Program-made: the position numbers and the translations under genes
IMG/VR virus record: IMGVR_UViG_3300034524_000090
Location: 32,001-96,000 of that record
Origin: a virus
DNA: 64,000 bases
Strand: one strand, 5' to 3'
Shown here: one piece after another, positions 6,301-52,614 of the stretch
Layout: each line of letters starts with the position of its first letter
How positions within the stretch are numbered: position 1 is the stretch's first letter
The notes under the pieces: generated by a model
What the model was told of the DNA's origin: nothing
Seen by the model: the letters and a program-made list of their open reading frames with translations, nothing else
Databases searched by the model: none

Positions 6301-8797
6301 GCCAACTATTATACAAAATGATATAGAGGCCCACAAGAATGATTTTAATAATCCTCATCATGTTTACCATAATCAAACTCAGCCATTAGAGGTTAATGAG
6401 GCAGATACCAATACTATTAGAGATAAACACATTTCTAACTTAATGGCTAAACAATGGGAAGAACATAGATTAAACGATGATCTTGCGGCGCACGGAACAA
6501 ACACTACTTCTGTTATTAGTGTTGGCGGTATTAATATTAATAATAGTATTAATCTTAGCGGAAAAGCTTATATTGAAAGTGGTGCTACCGATTTAGTCCA
6601 AATAAGAAATGCCAGTAACAGCGACTATGGGGATTTAATTGTGAGAAATTTGACCGTCAAAGGGACTACTACTGTAATTGAATCTCAAAATCTCCAAGTG
6701 GGCGATAATATTATTACTTTAAATAGTTCTTATACTGGTAGTAGTCCTACTCAGAATGGTGGACTTGAAATTGAACGGGGAACTTTAACTAATGCATCTT
6801 TAATTTGGGATGAAGGTAATGATGTTTGGAAAGCAGGTTTAGCAGGTTCAGAAGCTATTATTTGGACTTCTGCGACAGATGGTAGTGGTTCGGGGCTGGA
6901 TGCAGATCTTTTAGATGGTCAACATGCTAGTTATTTTGCTCCTGCTAGTCATAATCATGATTCTACTTACTTGAAATTAAGTGGTGGAACTTTAACTGGT
7001 GATTTAACCTTTAGTATAACAACAAAAAATGCCGCTACTAAGGGATTAATTTGGTCTGGATTAACTGATGCCCATAAAATATTTGTTGAAGAATATGGGA
7101 ATTCAGAATCTACTAGATTGGTTATTTATAATGCAGATAATGGCGATGTAGATTATACTGTATTTAGATCAGGTACTAGTATAGATACACTTGAGGTTAG
7201 ACGGAACTATCTTTATACACCAGTCCAATTTAGATCTGGAGTAACTACTGGAACGGCCCCATTTACAATTAATAGCACAACAAAAGTAACAAATCTTAAT
7301 GTAGATATGGTTGATGATTGTCATGTCGGTAATGGTGCAAATAATATTCTACTGCTTGATACTAATGGCTTAGTACCATTAACAAATATACCTAATGTGC
7401 TTACTGGTAAAGATGCTGATACTGTTGATGGTAAACATGCTACCGATTTTGTCCAAAAAGTTTCAAATGCACAAATAATTTTAGGTTTTACTGGCTGGTC
7501 TAGAAATAATGGAGAGGCAAATGTTTTAGGAGAAATCTCTGCCAATAACGTATCTGGTGATGCAAGATTAATGATACACAGTATAGGCAGTGGTAAAACT
7601 AATGTTTATGTAGATGGGGAAATATATGTTAATGAAGGAAATTATAAAGTTTGGCACGCAGGCAACGATGGTGCTAGTTCTGGTTTAGATGCGGATCTAT
7701 TAGATGGCTATCATGCTGGCAATGCTTCTGGTCAGATACCTTTATCTAATGGCACCGTAAATACAAACTTAAATGCTGATTTGTTAGATGGCAAACATGC
7801 TTCGGATTTTGTTTTAAAGTCTGGAGATACAATAAATGGTAATCTTGTGATAAATGGTTATACCAATGTTTCTTTACCTTCTAGTATAGCTGGTTGGCGT
7901 TGGGGAGATGGAACAGGTTTATGGAATCCTAAGACTTCTTGGAAATTAGTGGGTGGTAGACATGCGGCTGATGGTGATTGTTATATATCGTTAGCTTCTT
8001 CTTCGGGCAAGATGCATTTAGTCTTAGATGGTGAAGTGTATGCTAATGAAGGTCAGTATGTATGTTGGAATGCTGGTAATGACGGCTCTGGCTCTGGTTT
8101 AGATGCAGATCTATTAGATGGTATGCAACCATCTACTTCTGCTACGGCTAATACTATAGTTCAACGTGATACTTCTGGCAATATTACTGCTAATACTTTT
8201 AATGGTGTCTTAAATGGCAATGCCACTACAGCCTCTAAATTACAAACAGCCAGAACAATAACTTTATCTGGAGATATTAGTGGTTCGGCTTCTTTTGACG
8301 GTTCTTCTGATATTACTATTTCAACTACTTTACCTAATTCTGGTGTAACTGCTGGCACATATACAAAAGTAACTGTTGATGCTAAAGGTAGAGTAACCAG
8401 TGGAACTACTTTATCTGCTTCTGATATTCCTAATTTAGATTGGTCTAAAATTACTACTGGTAAACCTACTACTCTTTCTGGTTATGGAATTACAGATGCA
8501 GTACGAAATGCTGGCAATACTCCTTCTATTCAGGCTGGTCTAGATGCTAATAAACCTACTGCTGGTATTGCTGGAAGATTATATATTGCTACCGATACTA
8601 AGACAATTTATAGAGATGATGGGACACAATGGATTATTTTAAGTTCAGGTAGTGGCGGGACTTCTCTTGATCCTGAAAGCGAGCAGATATTAAGCGCTTC
8701 TGAATATAGAGTACAATCTACTACTTCTACGGCCAAATTTGTTATTGAATATAATGAGGCCAATGATAGTTTAGATTTTGTTTATTATGCTAGTTAA
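3365..8797 (+). CDS. Long tail fibre/spike protein
   Basis: TTG start; beta-helix-like repeats, two FN3 domains, repeated 'GNDGSGSGLDADLLDG' knuckles, 'TASKLQTARTITLSGD' and 'GTYTKVTVDAKGRVT' fibre motifs. Confidence 0.85.
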   Translation: MPTYLKYETQTKNITYDNGKIIAIYNDNTVDIVLGNGVDFYGNPISIQRVPIKGTYVPKIGDNVLISWEGNTPVVIGSNTSTPIDLNYSTIISSPNSIAPNIINNLHIENGTITASKLQAGTITAESGVIANAAIGTAQIQDLAVTNAKIADAAIDAAKIKDLTVTDAKILNLDASKITSGDISTERLTANIISAINLSTGDAKIDGAKIKEASIDDAQIISLTADKIVTGDLRANVMTTNVIDAINLSTSSATIDQAKIGNLDASKITSGDIDVERLKANVIDAINQTAVTARISQAKIEDLDASKIVSGSISTDRMKANVIDAINLSTSSATIDGAKITDATITNAKIASIDASKMVSGDISADRMKTNVIEAINLSTSGAVIDQAKIGYLDASKILSGTIDTSKVTISTNASGQGARIDIQHDGINLIDANNNVIARFNTDLGFVVHSPAGMKLDNQGSIRIGPTDDIVIDAEGIKAKAGGMEYTALFTGDGLTFIEPNNPDNKLIITSGQLKITTDGGQTFKTALTAEGFYGDILLDKTLPPSKFDTTPPAIPTWREEGVTSILEQTPETQIVTIVVKWNEVTDSDLEGYKIYLEENNSGNFYPVAIVGKTNEYHIRGIKPNTLYRVMVSSFDIQGNECSTKLPSNTNFTTYPRSVITASDTVAPATPSTPPEVTTGFKLFMLTWQEVVQNQDSTPCYDLSYYEIQRSSSLNWDEWTTIAKIKGTSLIDKDVDYNIRYRYRYRAVDTSGNVSGWSPVVDAGSPAQVGAGDIVAHSITTEHISTAGLSADIITSGKIKGDLIEANTITADKFESRLYGDLVQALRYVESRLKVKVFEWLGTTDNYNQGTFNGTYASNDILMLDTVYHWDTNINWDSGYYWDKPVVTSGFWESNVLDMGALNTILCLPKLSYTAPSGGYAKFYLKYSEDNITWTDYVEFSGTVITARYLKMKVELYTPDNNNNVLVNSLLLQCYVDEPTIIQNDIEAHKNDFNNPHHVYHNQTQPLEVNEADTNTIRDKHISNLMAKQWEEHRLNDDLAAHGTNTTSVISVGGININNSINLSGKAYIESGATDLVQIRNASNSDYGDLIVRNLTVKGTTTVIESQNLQVGDNIITLNSSYTGSSPTQNGGLEIERGTLTNASLIWDEGNDVWKAGLAGSEAIIWTSATDGSGSGLDADLLDGQHASYFAPASHNHDSTYLKLSGGTLTGDLTFSITTKNAATKGLIWSGLTDAHKIFVEEYGNSESTRLVIYNADNGDVDYTVFRSGTSIDTLEVRRNYLYTPVQFRSGVTTGTAPFTINSTTKVTNLNVDMVDDCHVGNGANNILLLDTNGLVPLTNIPNVLTGKDADTVDGKHATDFVQKVSNAQIILGFTGWSRNNGEANVLGEISANNVSGDARLMIHSIGSGKTNVYVDGEIYVNEGNYKVWHAGNDGASSGLDADLLDGYHAGNASGQIPLSNGTVNTNLNADLLDGKHASDFVLKSGDTINGNLVINGYTNVSLPSSIAGWRWGDGTGLWNPKTSWKLVGGRHAADGDCYISLASSSGKMHLVLDGEVYANEGQYVCWNAGNDGSGSGLDADLLDGMQPSTSATANTIVQRDTSGNITANTFNGVLNGNATTASKLQTARTITLSGDISGSASFDGSSDITISTTLPNSGVTAGTYTKVTVDAKGRVTSGTTLSASDIPNLDWSKITTGKPTTLSGYGITDAVRNAGNTPSIQAGLDANKPTAGIAGRLYIATDTKTIYRDDGTQWIILSSGSGGTSLDPESEQILSASEYRVQSTTSTAKFVIEYNEANDSLDFVYYAS
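3700..4590 (+). repeat. Internal tandem peptide repeats (LDASKI.SG.I...R..ANVI.AINLST...ID.AKI) of the tail fibre
   Basis: Several imperfect copies in protein and DNA (gatgcttctaa/gatgcctctaa recurring); boundaries approximate. Confidence 0.8.
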
Positions 8798-15683: not shown

Positions 15684-15959
15684 GTGGATTGTTTAGAAAA
15701 AGCTTTGGGAGTTGTAAAAGAAATAGCTATGAAGAATGAAGAATTAGAGAGTTATAATAATGAATTAGAGCAACGTATTGATGAATTAAGACGTTTAAAA
15801 GATGATTATCAACATCTGCTTTGTTTTTTTAAATACCTTGTTAAAAAGAATGGTGGTGTAGTACAAATTCCTGAGTTAGCTTACTTAGATCCTGTTAGAG
15901 ACTTATATATGAGTTATAATCCTAGTAGTTCGTCTTATATATTTAGAGTAAATAATTGA
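15684..15959 (+). CDS. Hypothetical coiled-coil protein
   Basis: AAGGAGG RBS, GTG start. Confidence 0.65.
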   Translation: MDCLEKALGVVKEIAMKNEELESYNNELEQRIDELRRLKDDYQHLLCFFKYLVKKNGGVVQIPELAYLDPVRDLYMSYNPSSSSYIFRVNN

Positions 15960-24465: not shown

Positions 24466-24494
24466 GGCGGGTAGGTAATACCTACCCGCCTTTT
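24466..24494 (+). terminator. Intrinsic terminator
   Basis: ggcgggtagg-taata-cctacccgcc-tttt. Confidence 0.85.
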
Positions 24495-24515: not shown

Positions 24516-27500
24516 ATGGATTCTAACGTCTTAGATCTGCTACAAAGGCGTTATTTTCTAAAAGATGAAAATGGTAATCTTATAGAAAATTCTTGGGAAG
24601 AACTTTGCGCTAGAGTTGCCGAAAATATTGCCAGCGCAGAGACTTCTCTTGAAAATAAAGAGCGATATAAAGATTTGTTTTATAAGGCGTTAGTTAATAT
24701 GGATATGCTAGCTTCCAGTCCAGTATTGTTTAATGCCAATACTCCACTACAGCAATTAAGTAGTTGTTTTGTGGGCGAACAACCAATTTTAACTTCTGAA
24801 GGGTTTAAGCTAATTAAAGATATTAAGGTTGGAGATTTAGTTGTTACCCATCAAGGCAGATTACGTTCAGTTTTAAAGACTTCTAAGCGTTATACCGAAG
24901 AGACATTATATACAATTTCGGTTGATAAAATGTATAAAGATACTTTAAAGGTTACTGGTGATCATCCTATATTAGGGATAAAAAGAAAAGATCTTATATG
25001 TAAGCGTGCCCGTAATTTAATCTGCACAGGTAAATTAAATAAACGTTGTTTATCTCAACCTAAACAATATAAACATGATTGTGAAAGACTAGGTGAGCAA
25101 TTATTACCATATTGGATTAAAGCGGAAGATTTAGAAGTAGGCGATTATGTTGTTGTTGGTACTATAAAGGAAACCAAAGATATTGATTATATTCGGATTA
25201 GTGATTTTATACCTTGTGATGTGTATATTAAAGATGGAGACTTTATTAAAGTTGCAGGACGGCCAAATTATGGTAAAGAAATTCCAGATAAAATACAGAT
25301 TGATGAAGATTTTATGTATATTGTTGGCTTATATCTTGGCGATGGTAGTGTAGTTCATAAAGATTATAATGTATCAAGTTGTGTAGGCTTTAGTATTAAT
25401 TCTAATAGGAATGATGTAGTTGATAAAATATGTGATTGTATGTATAGGGTATTTAATCTTAAACCCAATATTCATAATTATCCTGAACAGAATACTATCC
25501 AGGTCAGGTATCATTCCTTAATACTTGGATTATTTTTTGAACAATTATTGGGTTCTTTTTGTGATAAAAAAAGAATTCCTGATTGGATTTTATATTTACC
25601 CGAATCTAAACTAAAAAGTTTATTGGAAGGAATTATGGATAGCGATGGTTATCATTATAAAAATGATGTTTATATTGTCATGTGTAATCGTGACATTATA
25701 GAAAAGTTGTGGCTTATTTTGTTGCGTTTAGGGATATTGGCTAATATAAAAGAATTACCTATTCCTAAAGGTGGCAACAAGACTCCTTACTTGCTTAATT
25801 ATAAAGTAAGTCATAATTCTCAACATATTAAACTTGATGATTATGTACTTTTTAGGGTTAATGATATATCTACAGATATTATATCTGACTATGTTTATAA
25901 CCTTGAAGTAGAAGAAGATAACACATATGTTGCCAATGGGATTGTTGTGCATAATTGTTTTATTATAGATATAGATGACAATATGGAAAGTATAGCAGAG
26001 GCATGGAAAGAAGCGAGTCTAATCTTTAAATCGGGCGGGGGTGTAGGTTTTAACATTAGTTCTTTAAGGCCCAAAGGGGCTTTGGTTAAATCTTCTAATG
26101 GCGAAGCATCAGGCCCTATATCGTTTATGAAGGTATTTAATACTATCGTTGAACAAGTTAAACAGGGTGGTCGTCGAAAAGGTGCAATTAAAGTTGATCT
26201 TAATGTTGAACATCCTGATATAATTGATTTTATCCATTGTAAAGATAATACTTCTGAACTTAATAATATGAATATATCGGTTTCCATTTCTGATGCTTTT
26301 ATGGAAGCTGTTAAAAATAACAAAGATTGGCCTTTAGTGTTTAATAATAAAGTATATAAAGTAGTAAAGGCCCGTGATCTTTGGGATGAAATTATTAAGT
26401 CGGCCTGGGCTACTGGCGAACCTGGATTATCTTTTAGGGATACAATGGATAGGGCTAATCCTAATCCACATTTGGGGCATGTGTGGGCCACAAATCCCTG
26501 CAGTGAGTTTGTTAATATCCCTTATTCAAGTTGTCTAACTGGAGATACTAAAGTATTAACATTAGAAGGTGTTCGAGAAATAAAAGATTTAGTAGGTACA
26601 AGTGGTTTTATTTTAAGTGAAAATAATAAGTTTAATAAGTATCAAAATGTAGTATTTAAAGGCGTAAGGCCAGTTTATGAAATTATATTAGAAGGCAATT
26701 TAAAAATACAGGCAACAAAAGATCATAAATTCTTTACTAATAATGGATGGAAGCCTTTAGAGGAAATTAAAAAGGGAATTAAAATTAAAACTAGATCGGG
26801 TTATCCGTTAGTTAGTATAGAAGATTATGATGAAGAATATGAGATGTATGGATGGATGCATGGTGACGGGTGGTTTACAGAAAATAGTGTTGGCATTTCT
26901 TTTAATGGTAAAGATGGAGATTTTGATGTAAAAGAACGGTTGTTGCCGATATTTCGTTCTGTTTTTGAAGCTAATAATATAAAACCATTAAAAGATGATT
27001 TATGTTCTTTTCAACTTCAGATAACCAATAAAAAGGCAATAAAAAAGTGTGAAGAATTGGGATTTGTTAAAGGTCATGCTGATAGTAAAAGGTTGCCAAT
27101 TAGTTTTTATACTTGGAATATTAAACAACAAATATCGTTTATAAGAGGTTTGTTTACGGCTGATGGGTATATTGGCAAGGGGAAAAATAGGGGTATTATT
27201 TTATGTTCTACTAGTCTTGTTTTACTTGAAGAAGTTCAAAAGTTTTTAGCATCTATTGGTATTCAAAGTAGAATTACTACGGCCTCATTTAAAACTTGTA
27301 AGAGGAAAGATCAGCATAAATTGATAATTAATAAAGAATCATCTTATATATTTTATAATGTTATTGGATTTTCTGGTACAGCAAAAAGAAATAAATTTAG
27401 TAATGAAGTTGTCTCGAAAATATATAAAGACAAAGACTTTTTAGAGGTTATCGATATTAGATATGTTGGCAATAAAAGTGTTTTTGATATTATAGAAGTT

Positions 27501-28916
27501 GAACAAACTAATAGTTTTTATGCCAATGGTTTATTAGTTCATAACTGTAACTTAGCCTCAATTAATCTTGAAAATATGGTTGAAAATGGTGAACTTAATT
27601 GGGAAAAGGTTGAATATTATACAAGACTAACGGTACGCTTTTTGGATGATATGATTGATGTTAATAAATTACCATTGAAAAAGATTGAAGAAGTTACTAA
27701 ACTTATTCGGCCTATAGGTTTGGGTACTATGGGCTATGCCAATATGTTATATAAGTTAGGCATCCCTTATGGCTCCCAAGAAGCTGAAAATCTAACAAAA
27801 TTACTCTATGAATTTATCTATGAGACAGCTCTAGATGAATCTCAAAAGTTGGCTGAAGAAAGAGGTGTTTATCCTGGTTGGAAAGGCTCAGTATGGGAAC
27901 AAAAAGGCATTAAAGTACGTAATGCTAATTTAATGTCGATAGCTCCTAATGGCTCTATTAGTTTTATTGCCCAAACTACAGGTGGTATTGAGCCTGAATT
28001 TGCTTTAGTTTATCAACGAACTACTAACGAAGGGGTTAAATATTTTGTTTGTAATAAGGTCTTTAAGAAGGTATTACAGGAAAATGGTTTGTATTCTGAA
28101 GAACTTTTAAAAGAAATTTTTGAAGCAGGAGGATCAATACAGGAACTAGATTTGCCTCAACAATTAAAAGATATTTTTGTTGTAGCTCATGATCTTGATC
28201 CTTATAAACATCTAAAGACATTGGCTGTAGTACAGAGATATGTCGATATGGCTTGTTCGAAAACTATAAATCTACCCTCCTCTGCTACACCTGACGTGGT
28301 AGGAGCTATTTATATGAAAGCCTGGGAATTGGGCATTAAAGGGGTTACTGTATATAGAGATGGTTGTAGACCCAATCAGGTTTTAGCTACTGGTGCAACT
28401 ACTAAGGTTGAACAAGAAAAAGGTCAGGATAATAATAGTCGTGGTTACATTATTCCTGCTAAACAAAAAGCCAAAGGAATTAGAACTAAACTTTCTACAG
28501 GTTGCGGTTCTTTGTGGCTTTCTGCTTTTGCTGATGAAGATGGTAATATAATTGAAGTGTTTACAGATATTGGCCGTGGTAATTGTATTAGTAACACACA
28601 GGCACTTTCCAGAATGATTAGTCTTGCTTTGAGAGGAGGGATTAAATTAGAAGATATTATTGAGCAGTTACAAAGCGCTTGCACCTGTCCAAGTTATGCT
28701 GTTGCCAAAGCTACAGGTAAAGGAGTTTCTCCTGGCAAGTCTTGTCCTTCTGCTATTGCTGTTGCTTTAAAAGAATTACAAAAAGAATTTAAGCCCAATA
28801 TTGAAAAAGAAACTAAAGTTGTTGTTAAAACTTTATGTCCTCAATGTGGTAATGAATTAGTGTCACAGAGCGGATGTTGGCAATGTAATAACTGTGGTTA
28901 TAGTAAATGTGGTTAA
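24516..28916 (+). CDS. nrdJ: Class II (B12-dependent) ribonucleotide reductase with two inteins and C-terminal TSCPD/zinc ribbon
   Basis: SGGGVG, QGGRRKGA, TNPCSE thiyl motif, CNLASINL, SIAPNGSIS, KGVTVYRDG, KSCP, terminal CxxC pairs; no small subunit nearby; 731 aa after removing inteins. Confidence 0.92.
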   Translation: MDSNVLDLLQRRYFLKDENGNLIENSWEELCARVAENIASAETSLENKERYKDLFYKALVNMDMLASSPVLFNANTPLQQLSSCFVGEQPILTSEGFKLIKDIKVGDLVVTHQGRLRSVLKTSKRYTEETLYTISVDKMYKDTLKVTGDHPILGIKRKDLICKRARNLICTGKLNKRCLSQPKQYKHDCERLGEQLLPYWIKAEDLEVGDYVVVGTIKETKDIDYIRISDFIPCDVYIKDGDFIKVAGRPNYGKEIPDKIQIDEDFMYIVGLYLGDGSVVHKDYNVSSCVGFSINSNRNDVVDKICDCMYRVFNLKPNIHNYPEQNTIQVRYHSLILGLFFEQLLGSFCDKKRIPDWILYLPESKLKSLLEGIMDSDGYHYKNDVYIVMCNRDIIEKLWLILLRLGILANIKELPIPKGGNKTPYLLNYKVSHNSQHIKLDDYVLFRVNDISTDIISDYVYNLEVEEDNTYVANGIVVHNCFIIDIDDNMESIAEAWKEASLIFKSGGGVGFNISSLRPKGALVKSSNGEASGPISFMKVFNTIVEQVKQGGRRKGAIKVDLNVEHPDIIDFIHCKDNTSELNNMNISVSISDAFMEAVKNNKDWPLVFNNKVYKVVKARDLWDEIIKSAWATGEPGLSFRDTMDRANPNPHLGHVWATNPCSEFVNIPYSSCLTGDTKVLTLEGVREIKDLVGTSGFILSENNKFNKYQNVVFKGVRPVYEIILEGNLKIQATKDHKFFTNNGWKPLEEIKKGIKIKTRSGYPLVSIEDYDEEYEMYGWMHGDGWFTENSVGISFNGKDGDFDVKERLLPIFRSVFEANNIKPLKDDLCSFQLQITNKKAIKKCEELGFVKGHADSKRLPISFYTWNIKQQISFIRGLFTADGYIGKGKNRGIILCSTSLVLLEEVQKFLASIGIQSRITTASFKTCKRKDQHKLIINKESSYIFYNVIGFSGTAKRNKFSNEVVSKIYKDKDFLEVIDIRYVGNKSVFDIIEVEQTNSFYANGLLVHNCNLASINLENMVENGELNWEKVEYYTRLTVRFLDDMIDVNKLPLKKIEEVTKLIRPIGLGTMGYANMLYKLGIPYGSQEAENLTKLLYEFIYETALDESQKLAEERGVYPGWKGSVWEQKGIKVRNANLMSIAPNGSISFIAQTTGGIEPEFALVYQRTTNEGVKYFVCNKVFKKVLQENGLYSEELLKEIFEAGGSIQELDLPQQLKDIFVVAHDLDPYKHLKTLAVVQRYVDMACSKTINLPSSATPDVVGAIYMKAWELGIKGVTVYRDGCRPNQVLATGATTKVEQEKGQDNNSRGYIIPAKQKAKGIRTKLSTGCGSLWLSAFADEDGNIIEVFTDIGRGNCISNTQALSRMISLALRGGIKLEDIIEQLQSACTCPSYAVAKATGKGVSPGKSCPSAIAVALKELQKEFKPNIEKETKVVVKTLCPQCGNELVSQSGCWQCNNCGYSKCG
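24765..25955 (+). mobile_element. Intein 1 (397 aa) with LAGLIDADG endonuclease
   Basis: QLSS|CFVGEQ...VTGDHP...GLYLGDG...EGIMDSDG...YVANGIVVHN|CF. Confidence 0.95.
26532..27545 (+). mobile_element. Intein 2 (338 aa) with LAGLIDADG endonuclease
   Basis: PYSS|CLTGDT...ATKDHKF...GWMHGDG...RGLFTADG...FYANGLLVHN|CNL. Confidence 0.95.
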
Positions 28917-29500
28917 TTAAAAGTTGGGAGGGATTAGGTTTGAGTATTTTTCAAGAAGGTAGATTAGGCATAGGCGTACAACCTTATCACATTAAATGGG
29001 CCAAGGTTAGACCTAATGCAATAATTCCTTCTAAGCGTCCTGGTGATGCTGGTTTTGATGTTTATGCTTGTATAGATGAGGATATTTGGATAGAGCCTGG
29101 GGAAACAGTTCTTGTCTCTACAGGAATTGCTTATGAAATTACTCCAGGCTGGCATCTAATTGCTAAAGAAAGAGGAAGTACGGGCAAAATAGGGTTAAAG
29201 ACTAGTGCGGGCGTAGTAGATGGGAGTTTTAGGGGAGAGATTTTTGCTTGCCTATATAATGCCAATGAAGAAAAGACTATTATACTAAGTGTTAATGAAG
29301 AACAGACTAAAGCTAAACTTCGTGCTGATGGTTTTACAGTTGATGATTATGATGAATTCTTTATTATCTATCCTATTACAAAAGCAATTCAACAATTAAT
29401 TCCCGTATACAGTCCAGATGGCACATGGGAAGAAGTTGACTATGAAAATTTGTCAAAAACTGAACGCGGTGATGGAAAATTAGGTAGTACAGGCAAATAA
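28907..29500 (+). CDS. dut: Trimeric dUTPase
   Basis: AGFDV, RGS, GVVDGSFRGE, QQLI, RGDGKLGSTG motifs; true start may be TTG 28940 after GGGAGG. Confidence 0.92.
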   Translation: MWLIKSWEGLGLSIFQEGRLGIGVQPYHIKWAKVRPNAIIPSKRPGDAGFDVYACIDEDIWIEPGETVLVSTGIAYEITPGWHLIAKERGSTGKIGLKTSAGVVDGSFRGEIFACLYNANEEKTIILSVNEEQTKAKLRADGFTVDDYDEFFIIYPITKAIQQLIPVYSPDGTWEEVDYENLSKTERGDGKLGSTGK

Positions 29501-29503
29501 ATC

Positions 29504-29532
29504 TTGACAAAATAATCTCTAAGTGCTACTAT
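29504..29532 (+). promoter_or_regulatory. sigmaA-type promoter with extended -10
   Basis: TTGACA-17 nt-TACTAT preceded by TGn; palindrome gctacta-taa-tagtagc overlaps the -10. Confidence 0.7.
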
Positions 29533-29538
29533 AATAGT

Positions 29539-29611
29539 AGCTAATTACCCTTGTCATTGTTGTATTCCTCCCTCGAGGCCCTGCTGTTCAGGGCAGGGCC
29601 TACTTTCTTTT
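29539..29611 (+). ncRNA. Candidate small RNA / attenuated leader of about 73 nt
   Basis: Lies between promoter and GC-rich hairpin aggccctgc/gcagggcct + T-rich tail; carries anti-SD TTCCTCCC and a 12-nt match antisense to the start of gene 51268..52590. Confidence 0.5.
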
Positions 29612-29627
29612 AAAATAGGAGGTTAAA

Positions 29628-30428
29628 ATGCAGTTAAATACAGTTTATAATATGGATTGTAGGCAAGGATTTTGGGAATTAGAAAAAGAAAATTTAAAAT
29701 TTGATCTTATTCTGGCTGATCCGCCTTATTTTTTAGACCGCAGTAAGACTATTAAGTTTAAAAATCGTAAAGATATAAACTCTCCTATTGAGTGGGATAC
29801 TTTTACAAGTGAGGATGAATATTTAAAGTGGACTGCCGATTGGCTAAATGAAGCTATTAATCTTCTTTCTCCTACTGGTCAATTAATTTGTTACTGTCGT
29901 GCTGAGTATATAAGCGATATAATTTCAATGATAAAGCAAAAAATAAACCACAAATGTACTATGTACTATGTAAAAACTAATCCTCCCCCTTCGGTGCGTA
30001 AACGTAATTACGTGTCAACGGTGGAGACTCTTCTTTGGTTCGTTAAAAATTCAACAAAATATACGTTTAATTTTCAACGACAACAAGATATGCGTAATGC
30101 TTTTATATTACCAATCCCAGGAGGCAAAGTAAGAAAGCAATATCCTCACCCTACCATGAAACCTTTACAACTTAGTGAGCATCTTATTAAAGTCCATACT
30201 AATGAAAATGATAATATTTTAATTCCGTTTGCTGGTGTTGGTACTGAATGTGTGGCCGCAAAAAGACTAAATAGGAATTTTGTAGGTTTTGAGATTGACC
30301 CTTATTATTATGAATTATGCCTTAAACGGCTTGGTATTAATAATATTGGTATCAATAATAATACGATAGAAAGGGCTGATACCAATGAACGACAAAAAAA
30401 TCCAACTAGGGAGGCATCTGTTGGTTGA
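29628..30428 (+). CDS. Orphan beta-class N6-A/N4-C DNA methyltransferase
   Basis: DPPY precedes HPTMKP and PFAGVGT, then GFEID. Confidence 0.92.
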   Translation: MQLNTVYNMDCRQGFWELEKENLKFDLILADPPYFLDRSKTIKFKNRKDINSPIEWDTFTSEDEYLKWTADWLNEAINLLSPTGQLICYCRAEYISDIISMIKQKINHKCTMYYVKTNPPPSVRKRNYVSTVETLLWFVKNSTKYTFNFQRQQDMRNAFILPIPGGKVRKQYPHPTMKPLQLSEHLIKVHTNENDNILIPFAGVGTECVAAKRLNRNFVGFEIDPYYYELCLKRLGINNIGINNNTIERADTNERQKNPTREASVG

Positions 30429-30756: not shown

Positions 30757-30790
30757 CTGAAACAAAGTAAGGAGAGGATGGGATGGGGGC

Positions 30791-31951
30791 ATGTATGTTC
30801 CTTTACACGTCCATACCGAGTATTCGACATTAGACGGCATAGTTAAAGTACCAGATTATGTCAATAAAGTTAAAGAGTATGGATTGGAAGCTTGTGCTGT
30901 AACCGATCATGGTAATCTTGGTAGTGTTGTTAAATTTTATACTGAGTGCCGCAAAAATAATATTAAGCCTATTATTGGCTTAGAAGCTTATATTGTAGAT
31001 GATGTCAATGTTAAAGAACGTGATATGGCTCATATTGTCCTTTTAGCTAAGGACAAAGAAGGTTATTTAAATCTATTAAAGCTTAATAACTTATCTTTTC
31101 AGTATTTCTATTATAAACCACGCTTGGATTATAAGATTTTAAAAGAATACAGTAGTGGCCTTGTATGTATGTCAGCTTGTATGGCTGGACATATTCCTTC
31201 TGCCCTTCTACAAGGCGAGCATGATCGGGCCAGATATTATATTAACTTACTTTTGGAGATTTTTAAGGATGATTTTTACCTGGAAATCCAGGACAACAAT
31301 CTAGAAGATCAGTTCCTTGTTAATTCTCTTTTAGCCTCTTTGGGCAAAGAAAAAGGTGTACCTTTAGTGGCTACCAGTGATATACATTATCTTAATCCTG
31401 AAGAACAGGAAGCACATTTGGCGATTTTAGCCATACAGACGAAAAAAACCTTACAACAAATTCTTGATGGCAAAGATTTTTCAGGATTTGTTAATTCAGC
31501 CGATTTCTGTTTAAAGCCTTATGAGGTATTTAAAAATAACCTACAACAGTATCCAGAGGCTATAGCTGCCACTACCGTTATAGCTGATAAATGTAATCTT
31601 ACTATAGATGAGTTAGAAAATCCTAAGCCACTTTTTCCTGTTATTCAGTTGCCCAATAATATCACACCTGAAGAATACTTAACTAGATTAGTTAAATCAT
31701 CTTTATTACAACTAGATTTGCCGATAGACGATTACCAGAAATATTTTGATCGACTTCAGTATGAGTTGGAGGTTATTAATAAGCAAGGATTTGCTCCTTA
31801 TTTTTTGGTATTGAAGGATATAATTGATTTTTGTAGACGTGAAGGGATAAGGGTCGGACACGGCAGGGGTTCGGCCAGCGGTAGTTTAGTGAGTTATTTA
31901 TTAGGGATTACAAGAGTAGATCCGATTAGGCACGGTCTGTTATTTGAGCGT
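30791..31951 (+). CDS. dnaE: DNA polymerase III alpha, exon 1 (PHP domain to ...LLFER)
   Basis: HVHTEYSTLDG, TDHG, GRGSASGSL, LLFER. Confidence 0.95.
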
Positions 31952-32980
31952 AGTGTAGGTTGCGCTCGTTAAATCCCGTGAATTCGGTAAAAGCCCAAAC
32001 CGTCAAGGTCGGTGGGTAATACCGAGCCAAGCCTGTCGAATGGTCGAACCAAGTAGACAGGAAGGTGTAGAGACTAGAGAGTGAGGATGACCTACCAATA
32101 AACTCTCCACGAGAGCGGGACATAAAAGCGTTGGTATTATTGGAGGGACAGTATTGCCCATAATTAAATGTCAGTATTGCGGAAGGGAAGTATATAAAGA
32201 TCGACAACAAAAATTTTGTTCAAAAGAGTGTGCTGTTAAATTTAAACGAGAAACTACTCAAGAGATTGATTTTTTAACTAGCCCTAAAGTAGATACGGAA
32301 TTAAAATATTATCTTATAGGTTTAATTTGGGGAGATGGTTGTTTAGTACAACAAAAAAATAAATCGCCCCATATTGTATTGGCCTTAAAAGATAAAGAAC
32401 TACTTGAACAGATACGTTTATTATTATGTCCTCATCGTAAATTATATATTAATAAAAAACGAAAACCCCATCATTCTAATTCATATGTACTTGTTATTAG
32501 AAACTATTTTACGATAAAAGGCTTACAAGAATTGGGTCTAACACATCAAAAATCTAAAAATATTAGTTTTCCTAAAATAGAAGAACCTTTTATTATAGAT
32601 TTTATACGTGGATATTTTGATGCTAATGGGGCAATTTATTATGATGTTAGAGAAGAGGGTTATATATACAAATATGTCAAAATAACAACAGGAAGCAGAG
32701 ATTTTGCTTTAGGGTTAAAAGAGGTTTTAAAAAAATTAGGTTTTAATCCTGTTTTTTTTAAAGATAAAAGACATATGGCATACTATATACAATTAAGCCG
32801 CAAACAGGAAGTAGAGCAATTTGGCAATTTAATTTATTCTAATAAACAATGGTACTTAAAACGAAAATACCAACGCTTTTATGAAGATATAGTCCAAACT
32901 GGGCTGGAAATGACCAGCCGATGAAAATGAGGGAAACCTCCAGAGCGCAGGATAAAGAGCCTGCGGATAATAACAATTTG
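31952..32980 (+). mobile_element. Group I intron (1029 nt), probably subgroup IA
   Basis: Exon ends in U pairing with the guide (gagcgt/gcgctc, U.G pair); P3 tcccgtg/cacgaga; P7 gagacta and AAGATATAGTCC; terminal G; removal restores in-frame FER|FLNPDRVSMPDID. Confidence 0.93.
32154..32924 (+). CDS. Intron-encoded LAGLIDADG homing endonuclease with N-terminal Cys4 finger
   Basis: GGAGG + TTG; CQYC...FCSKEC; LIGLIWGDG; FIRGYFDANG. Confidence 0.9.
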   Translation: MPIIKCQYCGREVYKDRQQKFCSKECAVKFKRETTQEIDFLTSPKVDTELKYYLIGLIWGDGCLVQQKNKSPHIVLALKDKELLEQIRLLLCPHRKLYINKKRKPHHSNSYVLVIRNYFTIKGLQELGLTHQKSKNISFPKIEEPFIIDFIRGYFDANGAIYYDVREEGYIYKYVKITTGSRDFALGLKEVLKKLGFNPVFFKDKRHMAYYIQLSRKQEVEQFGNLIYSNKQWYLKRKYQRFYEDIVQTGLEMTSR

Positions 32981-34999
32981 TTCCTTAATCCAGACCGTGT
33001 TTCCATGCCCGATATAGATGTAGACATCGAAGAAACTCGCCGTGGTGAGGTAATACAATATTTATACGACAAATACGGCACTGATAAAGTATGTCACATA
33101 GGCACTTACGGCACTTTAAGCCTAAAAGCAGTTATTAAAGACGTAGCTAGGGCTTTAGATATTAGTTTTGAAATCGTTAATAATATAACCAAAAATATTC
33201 CTGATGAAATAGAAAGTATAACAGATATAGAACAAAGTGATCTTATAATTCAGATTGATAACCTTTTAGGTGAAGAAAAGCGTAAACAACTTTTAAGCAT
33301 TGCCAAAATCTTATATGATTTAAAACGTCATCCAAGTATTCATGCAGCTGGTGTGGTTCTATCTCCTATTCCACTTGATCAGATTGTGCCTGTACGGATT
33401 CAGGATGGAGATATTGTTACTCAATGGGAAATGGAAGATATTGAACATATAGGGCTAATTAAGTTTGACTTACTTGGCTTGCGAACTCTTAGCGTTGTAG
33501 AAGAATGTGTTAAAATGTGTAACATTGATCTTGACCAAATATCTTTTGAAGATGAAAAGGCGTGGGAACTAATTAGAAATGGTAGCACAATAGGATGTTT
33601 TCAGTTTGAGTCGCCTGGGATTAGAAAATTATTGAGGGATATGCAGGCTTCTACGTTTGAGGATTTAGTGGCAATTAATGCTTTATATCGCCCAGGGCCG
33701 CTTAACGCTAAAGATGAACAAGGCAAAACTATGGTAGAGCATTATGTAGATAGAAAATTAGGTTTTGAACCTGTAGAGTATGATCATCCTTTGTTGGAAT
33801 CAATATTAAAAAATACGTTCGGCATTATAGTTTACCAGGAACAACTGATGGAAATAGCCAAGGTTTTAGCAGGTTATACAATGTCAGAGGCAGATGAACT
33901 CCGCAAAGGCGTGGCAAAGAAAAAAACCGATATTGTTGTTCATCATCATCAAAAGTTTGTGGAAGGGTGTGTAAAAAATGGTATTAAACAAGACGTAGCT
34001 GAAAATATTTGGGGGCAGATAGAAACGTTCGCCGAATACGGCTTTAACCGCTCGCACAGTTGTTCGTATTCTTATCTCTCTTATTTTACTGCTTACTTGA
34101 AAGCCAACTATCCTTTACAGTATATGACTTGTGTGCTTAATTCGATTATAGATAAGCAGGATAAGATAGCCTATTATCTGCAAGAATGTTTACGTATGGG
34201 ATTAAAAATTTTACCGCCTGATATAAATAAGAGCTATTTTAACTTTAGTTTGGAAGGTGATGCTATTCGTTACGGCTTAGGCGCAATCAAAAAGGTTTCA
34301 TCGCAGTTTGTAGACGTATTAGTTAAAGAACGCCAGAAAGACCCTATTAGATCTCTGAAGGATTTAATTATAAGAATTAATCGTTCTGTAATGCGTAAAG
34401 ATCTCTTAATCAACCTTATTTTGGCAGGAACTTTAGATAGTATAGAGCCTTATACCAATAAATCTGCTCTATGCCAAACTGTAGAGGATATATATAAGTA
34501 CTTAACAAAATCACAACAAAAATTAAAAAAAGGCAAGATAACTGAAGAACAAATTAAGACATATATAGAAGACTATTCTTTACCTGATAATTTAAAACTA
34601 TATTCTAAACAAGAATTAGAGGCTTATGAGAAAGATATTTTGGGTTTTCCTTTGACTAAATATCTAATGTCAACAGAAAAACTTAGAAAAACACAGTCAA
34701 AATGCACTAATTTGATTGCTGATGTTCCTGCTTTGAAAAACGGTAAACAACTTATAGTAACTGGTATTGTAGAAGGTTTAAAAAATTATCCAGTCAAAAC
34801 TGGTAAATACAAAAACAAGCCTCTATATACTTTTTTCTTAAATGACTTGGATAGTAGTGTTAAATGTATAGTTTATCCTTCACAAAATATAAAAGTTAAT
34901 TTCAAAGAGGGTGATTTAATTGCTGTAAAAGCTCAAAAAACAACAGAAGAAAATGGCAGGCCATTATTGATCATTAAACAATATCGTAAAATTTCTTAG
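32981..34999 (+). CDS. dnaE: DNA polymerase III alpha, exon 2 (spliced product 1059 aa)
   Basis: PDIDVD, HAAGVV, KFDLLGL, FQFES, YRPGP, YQEQ, YGFNRSH, C-terminal OB fold. Confidence 0.95.
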   Translation, partial: FLNPDRVSMPDIDVDIEETRRGEVIQYLYDKYGTDKVCHIGTYGTLSLKAVIKDVARALDISFEIVNNITKNIPDEIESITDIEQSDLIIQIDNLLGEEKRKQLLSIAKILYDLKRHPSIHAAGVVLSPIPLDQIVPVRIQDGDIVTQWEMEDIEHIGLIKFDLLGLRTLSVVEECVKMCNIDLDQISFEDEKAWELIRNGSTIGCFQFESPGIRKLLRDMQASTFEDLVAINALYRPGPLNAKDEQGKTMVEHYVDRKLGFEPVEYDHPLLESILKNTFGIIVYQEQLMEIAKVLAGYTMSEADELRKGVAKKKTDIVVHHHQKFVEGCVKNGIKQDVAENIWGQIETFAEYGFNRSHSCSYSYLSYFTAYLKANYPLQYMTCVLNSIIDKQDKIAYYLQECLRMGLKILPPDINKSYFNFSLEGDAIRYGLGAIKKVSSQFVDVLVKERQKDPIRSLKDLIIRINRSVMRKDLLINLILAGTLDSIEPYTNKSALCQTVEDIYKYLTKSQQKLKKGKITEEQIKTYIEDYSLPDNLKLYSKQELEAYEKDILGFPLTKYLMSTEKLRKTQSKCTNLIADVPALKNGKQLIVTGIVEGLKNYPVKTGKYKNKPLYTFFLNDLDSSVKCIVYPSQNIKVNFKEGDLIAVKAQKTTEENGRPLLIIKQYRKIS

Positions 35000-51267: not shown

Positions 51268-52590
51268 TTATGCCTCCAAATATTTTGCAAAATGAAATTT
51301 ACCAAAAAGCAATTCCTTTACTAACCTTTGCCATTCCATTTCAAATTCTCTGGTGCTATCAAGAGTTTTTGTGTGTTTATGCAGAGCTTCATGTAATAAT
51401 GTCATTGTTACGTTTTCTACGCTGGTAAAAATTTCTATTGTTAAATAAATCGTATCCTTGATCTTATCATAGAAACCATCAATATTGCCACAATCAATTT
51501 TATTTATATAGCATTGTTGAGTAAGTTTTACAGGCTCTACTGGCCCTACAATTTTCTCTACAATATTTTTAGCAATCCTAAACATTTCTTTTTGTTTTTC
51601 ATCTAAACAACTAAATGGTATATCTACCTCATTAAATTTTTGTTCTATTATTTGTTGGCTATAGGGTACTCCTATACGTTCTAAAAATGCTTGAATTGCC
51701 CAAGGTAAATCCAATACCTGAAAACCTAAATATTCAGCAGTATTATCAGCTTTTGTATTATAACTTAAACATTTATTCTGGAATAATTTCATGACAATTG
51801 ATTTCCATAGTTCCCGATTTTGGGGCCATATTGATACTCTACTTTCGACATAATCGCTAAATTTATTTCTCATTTCTAGTATTTTTTCTAGAAAATATGT
51901 TATTACTTTTTTGCTTTGCGTTTCTTCTAAAGCGTTACGCATCATCTTTTCTAATTGTTGCATATCAACTACAGTCCGATCACGATTTTGAGCTTCTTTA
52001 CCAACTCCTTGAAAATTATAAGAGAATAATAAATTAGGCATCTCGGTTGCTAAAACACCATTAATAAAAACTTTTCCTCCAGGCAAACCGATAACAGGAT
52101 CAAGTTGTTTTATTTTTTCTTTCCGTAATTCTTTAAAATACTGTTTAGCCTGTTCCACTTCTTCAGGAGTGCATTCAATTTCAAACCTAGTTCCAACTTC
52201 TCTAGAAATCGATCTAATATTAAATGCTAAAACTTCACAACCCAATGCCTTAGAAAAGATTATTTCTGGTCTAATACGATAACCTACAGTATCTATAATC
52301 ATTTCCCTGCCTAATCTGGCTATAACCAGCATAGCCAATTTAAGTCCTTCGCCAAATTGTCCAATCAAATTATTATCGTCTCTTTTACTTGATTTGCCCA
52401 AAGCCAAATCTATAGTTGAAATACCAGGGCCATCATCTTCAATAATAAATTTATTTTTACCTCTATGAAAACGAATATTGCAATTGTATTTAGTTTTTGT
52501 GTCAAAGGCTTCTTGTAATATTTCTCGTAAAGCCTCTACTATTCCCCAATGAGGCACATATTCAGTAGAAATTGCAGTTTCAATACGCAT
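51268..52590 (-). CDS. GHKL-type ATPase fused to an HExxH domain
   Basis: 'WGIVEALREILQE..D', 'IEDDGPG', 'GKSSKR...IGQFGEGLKLA', 'GT'; C-terminal LLHEALH. Confidence 0.8.
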   Translation of the reverse strand: MRIETAISTEYVPHWGIVEALREILQEAFDTKTKYNCNIRFHRGKNKFIIEDDGPGISTIDLALGKSSKRDDNNLIGQFGEGLKLAMLVIARLGREMIIDTVGYRIRPEIIFSKALGCEVLAFNIRSISREVGTRFEIECTPEEVEQAKQYFKELRKEKIKQLDPVIGLPGGKVFINGVLATEMPNLLFSYNFQGVGKEAQNRDRTVVDMQQLEKMMRNALEETQSKKVITYFLEKILEMRNKFSDYVESRVSIWPQNRELWKSIVMKLFQNKCLSYNTKADNTAEYLGFQVLDLPWAIQAFLERIGVPYSQQIIEQKFNEVDIPFSCLDEKQKEMFRIAKNIVEKIVGPVEPVKLTQQCYINKIDCGNIDGFYDKIKDTIYLTIEIFTSVENVTMTLLHEALHKHTKTLDSTREFEMEWQRLVKELLFGKFHFAKYLEA

Positions 52591-52614
52591 TGTTGTATTT
52601 CCCCTCCTTAATAA

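What the first reader, a model, noticed from the sequence alone, without database searches (positions are those of the whole stretch)
29504..29611. Candidate trans-acting sRNA antisense to the start codon/RBS of the GHKL-HExxH early gene 23 kb away
Seen: a sigmaA promoter is followed within about 75 nt by a 9-bp GC hairpin and T-rich tail. The unpaired part, CATTGTTGTATT-CCTCCC (29555-29572), has 12 consecutive identities with + strand 52588-52599. It is therefore exactly complementary to the AUG and spacer of minus-strand gene 51268..52590, and pairing continues into its Shine-Dalgarno after a one-base bulge. Weaker interrupted complementarity exists to the start of 60811..61047 (ttgccattgt-aac-ttcctcc). 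Known: C-rich anti-SD seeds are how many Firmicute sRNAs block translation. Inference: an RNA from the replication module switches off early genes, and the same leader may attenuate MTase-speD-dnaE expression.
Basis: partly seen in the sequence, partly recalled or inferred. Interest (0 to 1): 0.75.

Follow-up and report, generated by a model that had tools for sequence, protein, structure and literature searches.

The report
Strain-specific phage promoter–terminator unit, possible antisense RNA
A short gene-free promoter-to-terminator unit in a 120-kb phage probably makes a ~72-nt RNA, but the proposed pairing with the GHKL gene start is no better than chance, while a far better 22-base match is to the start of a small orphan gene 40 kb away.

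Summary
The sequence facts hold. TTGACA-17-TGcTACTAT (29504-29532) is followed by 36 unstructured nt, a 10-bp GC hairpin (29576-29601) and a T-rich tail. It sits between a dUTPase-like gene and a DNA methylase gene. It is the only gene-free promoter→terminator unit in the 119.8-kb phage contig.

The 12-nt identity with the GHKL gene start is real but ordinary. The GHKL start ranks 5th of 181 translation starts. 71 of 153 control "anti-start" sequences had an equal or better second target. 34 of 153 share ≥12 nt with another start.

The exceptional match lies outside the window. Bases 29548-29569 would form a continuous 22-bp duplex (21 Watson-Crick pairs, 1 G·U) with the SD–AUG–codons 1-3 of a 54-codon orphan ORF at contig 101407..101571. 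The best value in 500 shuffles was 18.

A co-occurring sibling strain (~90% identical) has a contig that joins 29500 directly to 29576. So the promoter and seed are absent or replaced there, and the hairpin is kept.

There are no RNA data, no Rfam hit and no usable relatives.

My best reading (0.4) is a recently acquired antisense RNA or leader aimed at the 54-aa ORF. The near-equal rival (0.33) is an internal promoter in front of a leaky operon terminator, carrying a non-functional relic.

The parts
29504..29532 (+). Sigma-A-type promoter: TTGACA (29504-29509), 17-nt spacer, TG at 29524-29525, -10 TACTAT (29527-29532). Predicted start of transcription about 29539-29540.
   Evidence: Score 11 with the TG. 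Sites scoring 11 or more: 14 intergenic against 7 genic in the contig.
29525..29541 (.). Perfect 17-bp palindrome GCTACTAT-A-ATAGTAGC over the -10 box and start site. Possible operator; function untested.
   Evidence: It is one of only 28 perfect 8-bp-arm palindromes (spacer 0-3) in 119.8 kb. The motif CTATAAT(T)AGTAGC is shared with the promoter at 15607.
29540..29611 (+). Predicted ~72-nt RNA: a 36-nt unstructured 5' part plus the terminator hairpin and U-rich tail.
   Evidence: MFE -21.4 kcal/mol, z = -2.29, 5' part unpaired. No transcript data.
29548..29569 (+). 22-nt copy of the SD-AUG-codons 1-3 region of the 54-codon ORF at contig 101407..101571 (minus strand, outside the window; window-equivalent 69407..69571). 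In the + strand RNA it is antisense to that start and would form 22 continuous pairs, one of them G·U.
   Evidence: 21 of 22 identities, no homology in the flanks. Longest run with one mismatch or fewer in 500 shuffled genomes was 18. Duplex -38.9 kcal/mol, rank 1 of 181 starts and best non-self site of 39,920 windows.
29555..29566 (+). It is identical to 52588-52599. Its complement, AATACAACAAT(G), is also the unit of an 8-bp tandem array outside the window.
   Evidence: The 11-mer AATACAACAAT occurs 5 times in the contig against 0.1 expected.
29576..29601 (+). Terminator hairpin: 10-bp stem, 6-nt loop.
   Evidence: -20.3 kcal/mol. It is retained in the sibling strain.
29602..29611 (+). T-rich tail ACTTTCTTTT. 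It is interrupted by C at 29607, and that base is missing in the sibling strain.
29617..29630 (+). SD (AGGAGG, 29617-29622) and ATG (29628) of the DNA methylase gene. They follow the terminator tail directly, with no room for another promoter.
29519..29557 (-). Minus-strand 12-codon mini-ORF (MTRVISYYYSST) behind GGGAGG-N9-ATG. It shares only MTR with the 54-aa ORF.
   Evidence: No convincing minus-strand promoter upstream.
28907..29500 (+). dUTPase-like gene. Its stop codon abuts the element.
29628..30428 (+). N6/N4 DNA methylase gene, first gene downstream. It is followed by speD and a split dnaE.
52588..52607 (-).
   Evidence: Energy -27.1 kcal/mol, rank 5 of 181.

Best explanation
The element is a real, recently acquired and strain-specific transcription unit. 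A host sigma-A promoter fires into the pre-existing terminator of the RNR-dUTPase operon. This should give a ~72-nt RNA and, by read-through, the leader of the methylase-speD-dnaE mRNA.

The single-stranded 5' part of that RNA is an antisense copy of the ribosome-binding site, AUG and first three codons of a 54-codon orphan ORF 40 kb away on the other strand. The most likely RNA-level function is therefore antisense occlusion of that ORF's start. A 22-bp duplex would also be long enough for RNase III cleavage.

Pairing with other starts, including the GHKL gene, would be the generic weak pairing that any anti-SD sequence has.

Shown: the sequence anatomy, the uniqueness of the unit, the statistical excess of the 22-mer, and the polymorphism between strains. 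Inferred: that the RNA is made, that it accumulates, and that it acts on the 54-aa ORF.
For: - Promoter: TTGACA-17-TGnTACTAT lies in a 127-nt intergenic gap. Sites of this quality are about 20-fold enriched in intergenic DNA (14 against 7).
- Terminator: -20 kcal/mol, among the strongest + strand intergenic hairpins.
- Uniqueness: it is the only 1 of 7 promoter-to-terminator pairs (25-260 nt apart) that overlaps no gene. Elsewhere in the genome the order is terminator then promoter.
- Structure: the 5' 36 nt are unpaired in the MFE and centroid folds.
- The 22-mer: 22-nt complementarity to the start of the 54-aa ORF, 17 nt contiguous, with the single difference giving U·G.
- Ranking: best of 181 starts by 8.5 kcal/mol and best non-self site genome-wide.
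- Controls: only 1 of 153 control anti-start sequences reaches -38.9. No two real starts share more than 15 nt. Zero of 500 shuffles exceed 18.
- Boundaries: the homology is sharply bounded, with no flank similarity. It is centred on the ribosome footprint and lies wholly between the predicted start site and the hairpin.
- Target reality: the 54-codon ORF has an AAAGGAG-N7-ATG start. By my own estimate, a 54-codon open frame has about a 2% chance at this base composition.
Against: - No RNA data of any kind.
- No Rfam family.
- No relatives close enough to test conservation or covariation.
- The promoter+seed segment 29501-29575 is absent or replaced in an abundant sibling strain, while the hairpin is kept. 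So the unit is dispensable and young, which is also what a neutral relic would look like.
- The U-tract is interrupted by a C that the sibling lacks. This fits a terminator weakened for read-through rather than an efficient sRNA terminator.
- The methylase gene has no other promoter, so read-through must occur.
- The 54-aa ORF is an orphan with no homologue in 5.8 billion proteins, no family and no Atlas neighbour. Its reality and function are unproven.
- Across all pairs of positions in the genome, about 0.4 matches of 22 nt with one mismatch are expected (my estimate). The excess holds only because this element was singled out beforehand.
- Part of the shared sequence, AATACAACAAT, belongs to a DNA repeat family.
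Confidence: 0.4

Rival explanations
1. An ordinary internal promoter plus a leaky operon terminator. A 75-nt mosaic insertion brought a promoter that boosts methylase-speD-dnaE expression. The hairpin is simply the terminator of the RNR-dUTPase operon. The 22-nt start-site copy is a non-functional relic of the recombination or template-switch event, and any short RNA is a by-product.
For: - The sibling strain keeps the hairpin but not 29501-29575, and it has an uninterrupted T-run.
- The methylase gene has no promoter of its own after the terminator.
- The RNR gene likewise sits directly behind a strong terminator (24466-24490) with no promoter between, so read-through of terminators is normal in this phage.
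- The copy is a direct repeat on the same DNA strand as the original, as template switching would give.
- The genome holds other short dispersed repeats of 19-32 nt.
- One substitution in 22 nt fits a recent neutral event. By my estimate from the spectrum, about 0.3 of random single changes would also leave a wobble pair.
Against: - A promoter reading antisense across a copied SD-AUG and then straight into a terminator is the design of known antisense regulators. It is hard to obtain by chance.
- The copy lies wholly inside the 36-nt single-stranded stretch and is centred on the start codon.
- Placing a new promoter 37 nt upstream of a -20 kcal/mol terminator is a poor way to drive downstream genes.
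- It is the only such arrangement in the genome.
Confidence: 0.33
2. One reading: a trans-acting C-rich anti-SD sRNA from the replication module. Its main job would be to switch off the GHKL-HExxH early gene (51268..52590) and other early genes such as 60811..61047.
For: - The 12-nt exact complementarity over the AUG and spacer plus a partial SD match is real. The duplex energy is -27.1 kcal/mol.
- The seed has 4 places with exact runs of 12 nt or more, against a mean of 0.41 in shuffles.
- 10 of the 24 best non-self sites are translation starts.
Against: - The excess is what any reverse complement of a start region shows. 71 of 153 controls have a second target at least as good, and 34 of 153 share 12 nt or more.
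- The GHKL start is 5th of 181 and 12th among non-self sites genome-wide, tied with non-start sites.
- Beyond the bulge the pairing into the SD is interrupted.
Confidence: 0.08
3. A cis-acting leader. In read-through transcripts the anti-SD/anti-AUG stretch folds back on the methylase SD and AUG. Alternatively, the promoter-proximal terminator is a regulated attenuator or antitermination site of the lambda pR'-tR' type. Either would control methylase-speD-dnaE.
For: - In the MFE fold of 29540-29660 and 29540-29700, bases 29560-29571 pair with the methylase SD and AUG.
- The SD unpaired probability is 0.12 with the leader against 0.44 without it, in the 29576-29700 context.
- The promoter-terminator-gene order matches attenuator layouts.
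Against: - The methylase start ranks only 130th of 181 for pairing with the seed (-13.1 kcal/mol).
- In the longer context 29576-29760, the SD is already 0.02 unpaired without the leader, because it pairs with the CUUUCU tail.
- No riboswitch or leader family matched.
- The sibling strain manages without the segment.
- No antiterminator gene was identified (not searched systematically).
Confidence: 0.09
4. A DNA-level site. The shared AATACAACAAT motif and/or the 17-bp palindrome over the -10 box would be binding sites for a phage DNA-binding protein (operator or iteron-like). The resemblance to gene starts would reflect that protein's sites rather than RNA pairing.
For: - AATACAACAAT occurs 5 times against 0.1 expected. 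Two copies lie in a 10-copy 8-bp tandem array (CAATACnn) next to an AT-rich stretch. That array is 270-350 nt upstream of the 54-aa ORF.
- The GHKL start and the array edge share CAACAATGCGT.
- A perfect palindrome overlaps the -10 box and start site.
Against: - The 22-mer extends well beyond the repeat unit on both sides.
- Only 1.5 repeat units are present at the element.
- The palindrome occurs once. No candidate binding protein was identified.
Confidence: 0.07
5. The segment is the ribosome-binding site of a translated minus-strand minigene (MTRVISYYYSST).
For: GGGAGG-N9-ATG is a good start. It is one of only 5 opposite-strand start-like motifs in 98 intergenic gaps, and one of 2 with ATG.
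Against: - No credible minus-strand promoter upstream.
- It lies inside a 43-kb block of + strand genes.
- Only 12 codons, and no similarity beyond MTR to the 54-aa ORF.
- The segment is absent or replaced in the sibling strain.
Confidence: 0.03

Closest known systems
Phage immunity antisense RNAs that block a ribosome-binding site: P1/P7 c4 RNA, P4 CI RNA, P22 sar (mechanisms recalled; for c4 only a search listing was seen)
   Same: A small phage-encoded RNA whose exposed stretch is complementary to the SD/AUG region of another phage gene. The complementarity was created by a duplicated sequence.
   Different: Those RNAs lie in or next to the operon they control, in the immunity region, and c4 and CI are processed from longer transcripts. 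Here the candidate target is 40 kb away on the other strand. The unit sits in the nucleotide-metabolism/replication block. Rfam, which to my recollection holds a C4 family, gave no match.
IS10 RNA-OUT and chromosomal type I antitoxin RNAs with 18-31-nt complementarity from local repeats, such as IstR-1 and AgrB (recalled)
   Same: A promoter reading antisense across a start codon and SD into a terminator hairpin. There are about 20 bp of perfect pairing over the translation start.
   Different: Those are cis-encoded or adjacent to their target. Here the 'sense gene' at the locus is only a 12-codon stump. The 54-aa ORF is charged and Cys-rich (CxxC-x3-CxxC), not a hydrophobic toxin (sequence).
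Firmicute C-rich anti-SD sRNAs, RoxS/RsaE type (abstract of PMC4409812 seen in the listing; mechanism recalled)
   Same: An unpaired C-rich stretch (UUCCUCCC) that can pair with GGAGG of many mRNAs, followed by an intrinsic terminator.
   Different: RoxS/RsaE are conserved host sRNAs with several C-rich loops and short seeds. This one is a single strain-specific unit with one long, near-perfect match. There is no Rfam match.
PeSL promoter/stem-loop cassettes of T4-type phages (passages of PMC2839356 read)
   Same: An intergenic composite of a strong sigma-70-like promoter and a terminator stem-loop, associated with insertions and deletions between closely related phages.
   Different: PeSLs are repeated about 50 times per genome. 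Their stem-loop lies upstream of, within or just at the promoter, so the promoter's own transcripts are not terminated. Here there is one unit, and the stem-loop lies about 37 nt downstream of the start site.
Lambda pR'-tR' (6S RNA) and OOP RNA (recalled)
   Same: A constitutive promoter followed closely by a terminator gives a short RNA, and read-through expresses the downstream operon.
   Different: No Q-like antiterminator or its binding element was looked for or found. OOP is cis-antisense.

Membership tests
Trans-acting base-pairing sRNA gene (generic definition) | Own promoter and intrinsic terminator enclosing no ORF | tested here: met
   This is at sequence level only.
Trans-acting base-pairing sRNA gene (generic definition) | A discrete transcript of the predicted size is detected | not testable with these tools
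   No RNA run holds the sequence.
Trans-acting base-pairing sRNA gene (generic definition) | An accessible seed whose complementarity to a target start exceeds background | tested here: met
   Met for the 54-aa ORF. Not met for the GHKL gene.
Trans-acting base-pairing sRNA gene (generic definition) | Conservation of the gene, and covariation of seed and target, in relatives | tested here: not met
   The only near relative seen, a sibling strain in run X3, lacks or has replaced 29501-29575. The target locus in that strain could not be examined. No other close relatives were found.
Any curated Rfam family (including phage antisense RNAs, leaders and riboswitches) | Match at the family's gathering score | tested here: not met
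   0 matches in the whole window.
P1 c4 / P4 CI-type immunity antisense RNA | Complementary to the ribosome-binding site of a phage gene | tested here: met
   A 22-bp duplex over the SD, AUG and codons 1-3 of the 54-aa ORF.
P1 c4 / P4 CI-type immunity antisense RNA | Encoded in the same operon or immunity region as its target | tested here: not met
   The target is 40 kb away on the opposite strand.
PeSL regulatory cassette | Many similar copies per genome, with the stem-loop placed upstream of or within the promoter | tested here: not met
   There is a single unit, and its stem-loop lies downstream of the start site.
Type I toxin-antitoxin pair | The target encodes a small hydrophobic membrane peptide, and the antitoxin RNA is adjacent | tested here: not met
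   The 54-aa sequence is charged and Cys-rich, with no hydrophobic stretch (read by eye). The RNA locus is 40 kb away.
Promoter-proximal terminator under antitermination (lambda pR'-tR' type) | A phage antiterminator and its recognition element at the promoter | not tested
   No systematic search for Q/N-like proteins was made.

The most novel reading that the evidence does not exclude
This could be a snapshot of sRNA birth in a phage population. One strain would have captured, between a sigma-A promoter and a pre-existing operon terminator, a 22-nt antisense copy of the translation start of an orphan early-block gene 40 kb away. That would create a trans-acting antisense RNA (and methylase-operon leader) that is polymorphic among co-occurring strains in the same subsurface samples.
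Probability: 0.3. Interest if true: 0.6.

Novelty: new member of a known kind. Interest (0 to 1): 0.35.

Why it matters
If the RNA is made and acts on the 54-aa ORF, it would be a rare case in a Firmicute-type phage of a trans-encoded antisense regulator with a clear origin: a copied ribosome-binding site. It would be caught while still polymorphic between sibling strains. That would be useful for understanding how phage sRNAs arise.

If it is only an internal promoter with a relic, the finding is ordinary. For the scan, the practical lesson is that a 12-nt match between an anti-SD-like sequence and a gene start carries almost no information in an AT-rich phage with strong GGAGG sites.

Tried and rejected
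- RNA evidence: no RNA holder was listed for window 26000-33000. Only DNA runs from subsurface or oil-field metagenomes hold it.
- Close relatives for covariation:
  - Megablast and blastn against phages found nothing useful.
  - The dUTPase and methylase protein scans of IMG/VR found no relatives.
  - dnaE-N gave only 11 loci at 28-35% identity.
  - The metagenome scan gave one 1470-nt contig at 65% identity that stops inside the dUTPase gene.
  - The genome-contig scan gave 3 distant methylases.
  - Exact-pattern scans for the hairpin and for the promoter palindrome gave 0 hits.
- The 20-mer CTTGTCATTGTTGTAYTCCT hit 4 IMG/VR contigs (3 independent lineages). All are unrelated gene starts of the form AGGAGTACAACAATGACAAG. 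By my estimate this is about the chance expectation for start-like sequences, so I did not use it as evidence.
- Protein cluster look-up:
  - There is a 96%-identical methylase on a 60-kb NCBI contig and a 99%-identical variant of the 112-aa neighbour gene on Logan contigs.
  - There is no variant of the 54-aa ORF.
  - Their DNA could not be fetched, so presence or absence of the module and of the target in those strains stays open.
- The 54-aa ORF has no PHROG family, no homologue and no Atlas neighbour. The 112-aa neighbour is likewise an orphan.
- Earlier notes of this scan: nothing found.
- Brevibacillus phage Sundance has the best dUTPase match (43% identity). It has no comparable unit after its dut gene and is not syntenic.
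- Cis sequestration of the methylase SD was tested by partition-function folding. The result depended on context.

Full report
**Context.** The window is bases 32001-96000 of a 119,804-bp IMG/VR phage contig, estimated 86% complete. GC content is about 33%.
- Genes run on the + strand to 43377 and on the minus strand from 43389 onward.
- The finding lies in a 127-nt gap. Upstream is a dUTPase-like gene (28907..29500). Upstream of that is an intein-bearing ribonucleotide reductase gene (24516..28916).
- Downstream is an N6/N4 DNA methylase gene (29628..30428), then speD and a dnaE split by a LAGLIDADG ORF.
- The nearest cultured relatives, judged by the dUTPase, are large Brevibacillus and Bacillus siphoviruses at about 40-43% identity.
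- The contig also encodes a tyrosine integrase and a large terminase.

**The observation.** All sequence statements are correct.
- TTGACA lies at 29504-29509. A 17-nt spacer follows, then TG at 29524-29525 and TACTAT at 29527-29532.
- The 72-nt RNA predicted from 29540 has an unpaired 36-nt 5' part and a 10-bp hairpin at 29576-29601. Its energy is -21.4 kcal/mol, z = -2.29. The tail is ACTTTCTTTT.
- CATTGTTGTATT (29555-29566) equals 52588-52599, which is the AUG and spacer of the GHKL-domain gene 51268..52590.

**Are the promoter and terminator real?**
- Promoter-like sites scoring 11 or more number 21 in the contig. 14 lie in about 10.3 kb of intergenic DNA and 7 in about 109.5 kb of genes. 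A site of this quality in a 127-nt gap is therefore unlikely to be chance.
- Two other + strand promoters are perfect TTGACA-17-TATAAT (13826 and 15607). The one at 15607 shares CTATAAT(T)AGTAGC with this element.
- The hairpin (-20.3 kcal/mol) is among the strongest + strand intergenic terminators.
- I paired 128 promoter-like sites with terminators of -10 kcal/mol or better lying 25-260 nt downstream. That gave 7 pairs, and only this one overlaps no gene.
- Elsewhere the order is terminator, then promoter, then RBS. Here it is promoter, terminator, RBS.
- The methylase SD follows the T-tail directly, so methylase transcripts must read through the hairpin. The same holds for the RNR gene behind the terminator at 24466-24490.

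**Is the GHKL match exceptional? No.**
- I used ViennaRNA duplexfold with the 36-nt 5' part against 181 translation starts (-30..+20). The GHKL start ranks 5th (-27.1 kcal/mol) and 60811..61047 ranks 6th (-26.9). The mean is -15.9 and the sd 5.1.
- The right control is a set of sequences that, like this one, look like the reverse complement of a start region. I made 153 pseudo-sRNAs from real starts with an SD score of 4 or more. Their best non-self target has a median of -27.0. 71 of 153 reach -27.1 or better, and 29 of 153 reach -30 or better. 34 of 153 share an exact run of 12 nt or more with another start.
- Genome-wide (39,920 windows of 44 nt, both strands), the GHKL site is the 12th best non-self site and ties with sites that are not starts.
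- In 500 block-shuffled genomes, at least one exact run of 12 nt or more with the 36-mer occurs in 33%.
- The element has 4 such places against a mean of 0.41. Two of the other three (57940 and contig 99891) lie mostly over the complement of GGGAGG, which abounds on the + strand of the minus-gene block; the third is the 54-aa ORF start described next.

**What is exceptional.** A search of the whole contig found a second copy of 29548-29569 at contig 101562-101583, with 21 of 22 identities and 17 contiguous.
- That site is the SD (AAAGGAG), 7-nt spacer, ATG and first three codons of a 54-codon minus-strand ORF, 101407..101571. The protein begins MTREERIL and contains C-x2-C-x3-C-x2-C. The ORF lies 5.5 kb beyond the window's end.
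- The + strand RNA from the element would form a continuous 22-bp duplex with that mRNA. The single difference gives U·G.
- The duplex energy is -38.9 kcal/mol. That is the best of 181 starts by 8.5 kcal/mol and the best non-self site genome-wide, where the next is -31.7.
- Only 1 of 153 controls reaches this value, and no two real starts share more than 15 nt.
- The longest run with one mismatch or fewer in 500 shuffles was 18.
- The homology is sharply bounded, and the flanks score no better than shuffles.
- The copy lies entirely between the predicted start site and the hairpin.
- So the two 22-mers are related by copying, not by convergence. The 20-mer also turns up as a gene start in 3 unrelated IMG/VR lineages. 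By my estimate that is about what chance gives across roughly 10^8 viral genes, so it does not explain two copies in one 180-gene genome.

**A complication.** The core AATACAACAAT occurs 5 times in the contig against 0.1 expected:
- once in the element;
- once at the GHKL start;
- twice inside a 10-copy tandem array of 8-bp units (CAATACnn, contig 101840-101921; TRF);
- once in the tape-measure gene.

The array lies beside an AT-rich stretch, about 270-350 nt upstream of the 54-aa ORF. A perfect 17-bp palindrome (29525-29541) also overlaps the -10 box and start site. It is one of 28 such palindromes in the contig. A DNA-level reading (operator or iteron-like sites) therefore cannot be excluded. 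However, the 22-mer extends well beyond the repeat unit.

**Comparative evidence.** No relative close enough to align the gap was obtainable. Contigs of four metagenome runs laid on 27000-32000 gave the only comparison.
- They show a sibling strain about 90% identical. For example, one 927-nt contig has 87 differences. It is about 10-fold more abundant than the window's strain in run X3.
- One of its contigs (depth 270) joins 29500 to 29576, with 64 nt on the shorter side. The tool could not say whether other letters lie between.
- Depth in bin 29505-29671 drops as expected if only the minor strain covers 29501-29575.
- Downstream, the sibling lacks the C at 29607, which gives an unbroken T-run. 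It also has small indels at 29623, 29632 and 29634.
- Caveat: this was read at 80% likeness from contigs, not reads.
- Taken at face value, the hairpin is the conserved terminator of the RNR-dUTPase operon. The 75 nt carrying the promoter and seed are a strain-specific module, either gained here or lost or replaced there.
- The target locus in the sibling could not be examined.
- The protein look-up shows a 99%-identical variant of the neighbouring 112-aa gene in Logan contigs, but no variant of the 54-aa ORF. Those contigs are 1128 nt or shorter, so this says little.

**Cis effects.** In read-through folds the seed pairs with the methylase SD and AUG. But by duplex energy the methylase start ranks 130th of 181. 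Without the leader, the SD is 0.44 unpaired in one context and 0.02 in a longer one, where it pairs with the CUUUCU tail. I therefore give the attenuation idea little weight.

**Mechanism and odds.**
- Most likely (0.4): the unit makes a ~72-nt RNA whose exposed 5' part blocks the ribosome-binding site of the 54-aa ORF, possibly with RNase III cleavage of the 22-bp duplex. Read-through supplies the methylase-speD-dnaE mRNA.
- A promoter reading antisense across a copied SD-AUG into a terminator is the design of IS10 RNA-OUT, P22 sar and type I antitoxin RNAs (recalled). It is hard to explain otherwise.
- Nearly as likely (0.33): the module is just an internal promoter acquired in a mosaic event, the 22-mer is a neutral relic, and the weakened T-tract serves read-through.

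**Comparison with known systems.**
- It works like the phage immunity antisense RNAs (P1 c4, P4 CI) and like Firmicute C-rich anti-SD sRNAs. It is a member of no curated family (0 Rfam matches).
- It differs from the phage RNAs in being 40 kb from its candidate target.
- It differs from the PeSL cassettes of T4-type phages in being single-copy and in having the stem-loop downstream of the start site (definition from passages of PMC2839356).

**Verdict.** The unit is real at the sequence level and unusual within this genome. Function is unproven, and the unit is dispensable in a sibling strain. If true, it is a new member of a known kind. Interest is moderate to low (0.35).

Noticed in passing
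outside the window: contig 101840-101921 (L023:5840-5921; L002 about 1780-1860): A tandem array of ten 8-bp units (minus-strand CAATACnn). It lies next to an AT-rich stretch in a roughly 900-nt non-coding region upstream of the 54-aa ORF. More tandem repeats of 16 and 36 nt lie at contig 100.5-100.95 kb. This could be an origin, a centromere or an operator array. Its unit overlaps the 12-mer of the finding.
   Followed up: partly
window 44620-44636, 61076-61092, 61373-61389, 61858-61874, 63405-63421; also contig 96260, 100445 and 100593: Eight copies (3 mismatches or fewer) of the minus-strand motif TCTATCGG[AT]TTGGGTTT. In several of the eight it lies directly behind a TATAAT-like box, and in most it lies 20-30 nt before the SD of a minus-strand gene, including 60811..61047. 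It may be a conserved leader or promoter-proximal element of that gene block.
   Followed up: partly
window 24516-28916 and 30791-34999: The ribonucleotide reductase gene carries Hint/intein and LAGLIDADG domains (1466 aa). dnaE is split into 30791..31972 and 32921..34999, with a LAGLIDADG ORF (32154..32924) between the two parts.
   Followed up: no
window 24466-24490: A strong terminator (-20.9 kcal/mol, TTTT tail) lies immediately before the RNR SD with no promoter between. RNR expression therefore also needs terminator read-through or antitermination.
   Followed up: no
window 15607-15680: A perfect TTGACA-17-TATAAT promoter whose transcript would begin with a 12-bp 5' hairpin (TAGTAGCGAAGC...GCTTCGCTACTA) just before the SD of 15684..15959. 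This looks like a 5' stabiliser.
   Followed up: no
window 30385-30756: A phage-encoded S-adenosylmethionine decarboxylase (speD; Pfam AdoMet_dc, E = 1e-32) lies directly after the DNA methylase gene.
   Followed up: no
window 27555-29466: A sibling strain in runs X3-X5 differs by about 10% in the RNR 3' part and the dUTPase gene. It has replaced segments at 28794-28982 (146 other letters) and 29272-29361 (78 other letters).
   Followed up: no
outside the window: contig 6484..7338 (minus strand): A tyrosine integrase (PHROG 1, E = 1e-56) lies near 21-nt inverted repeats at contig 6334 and 6452. The phage may be temperate.
   Followed up: no
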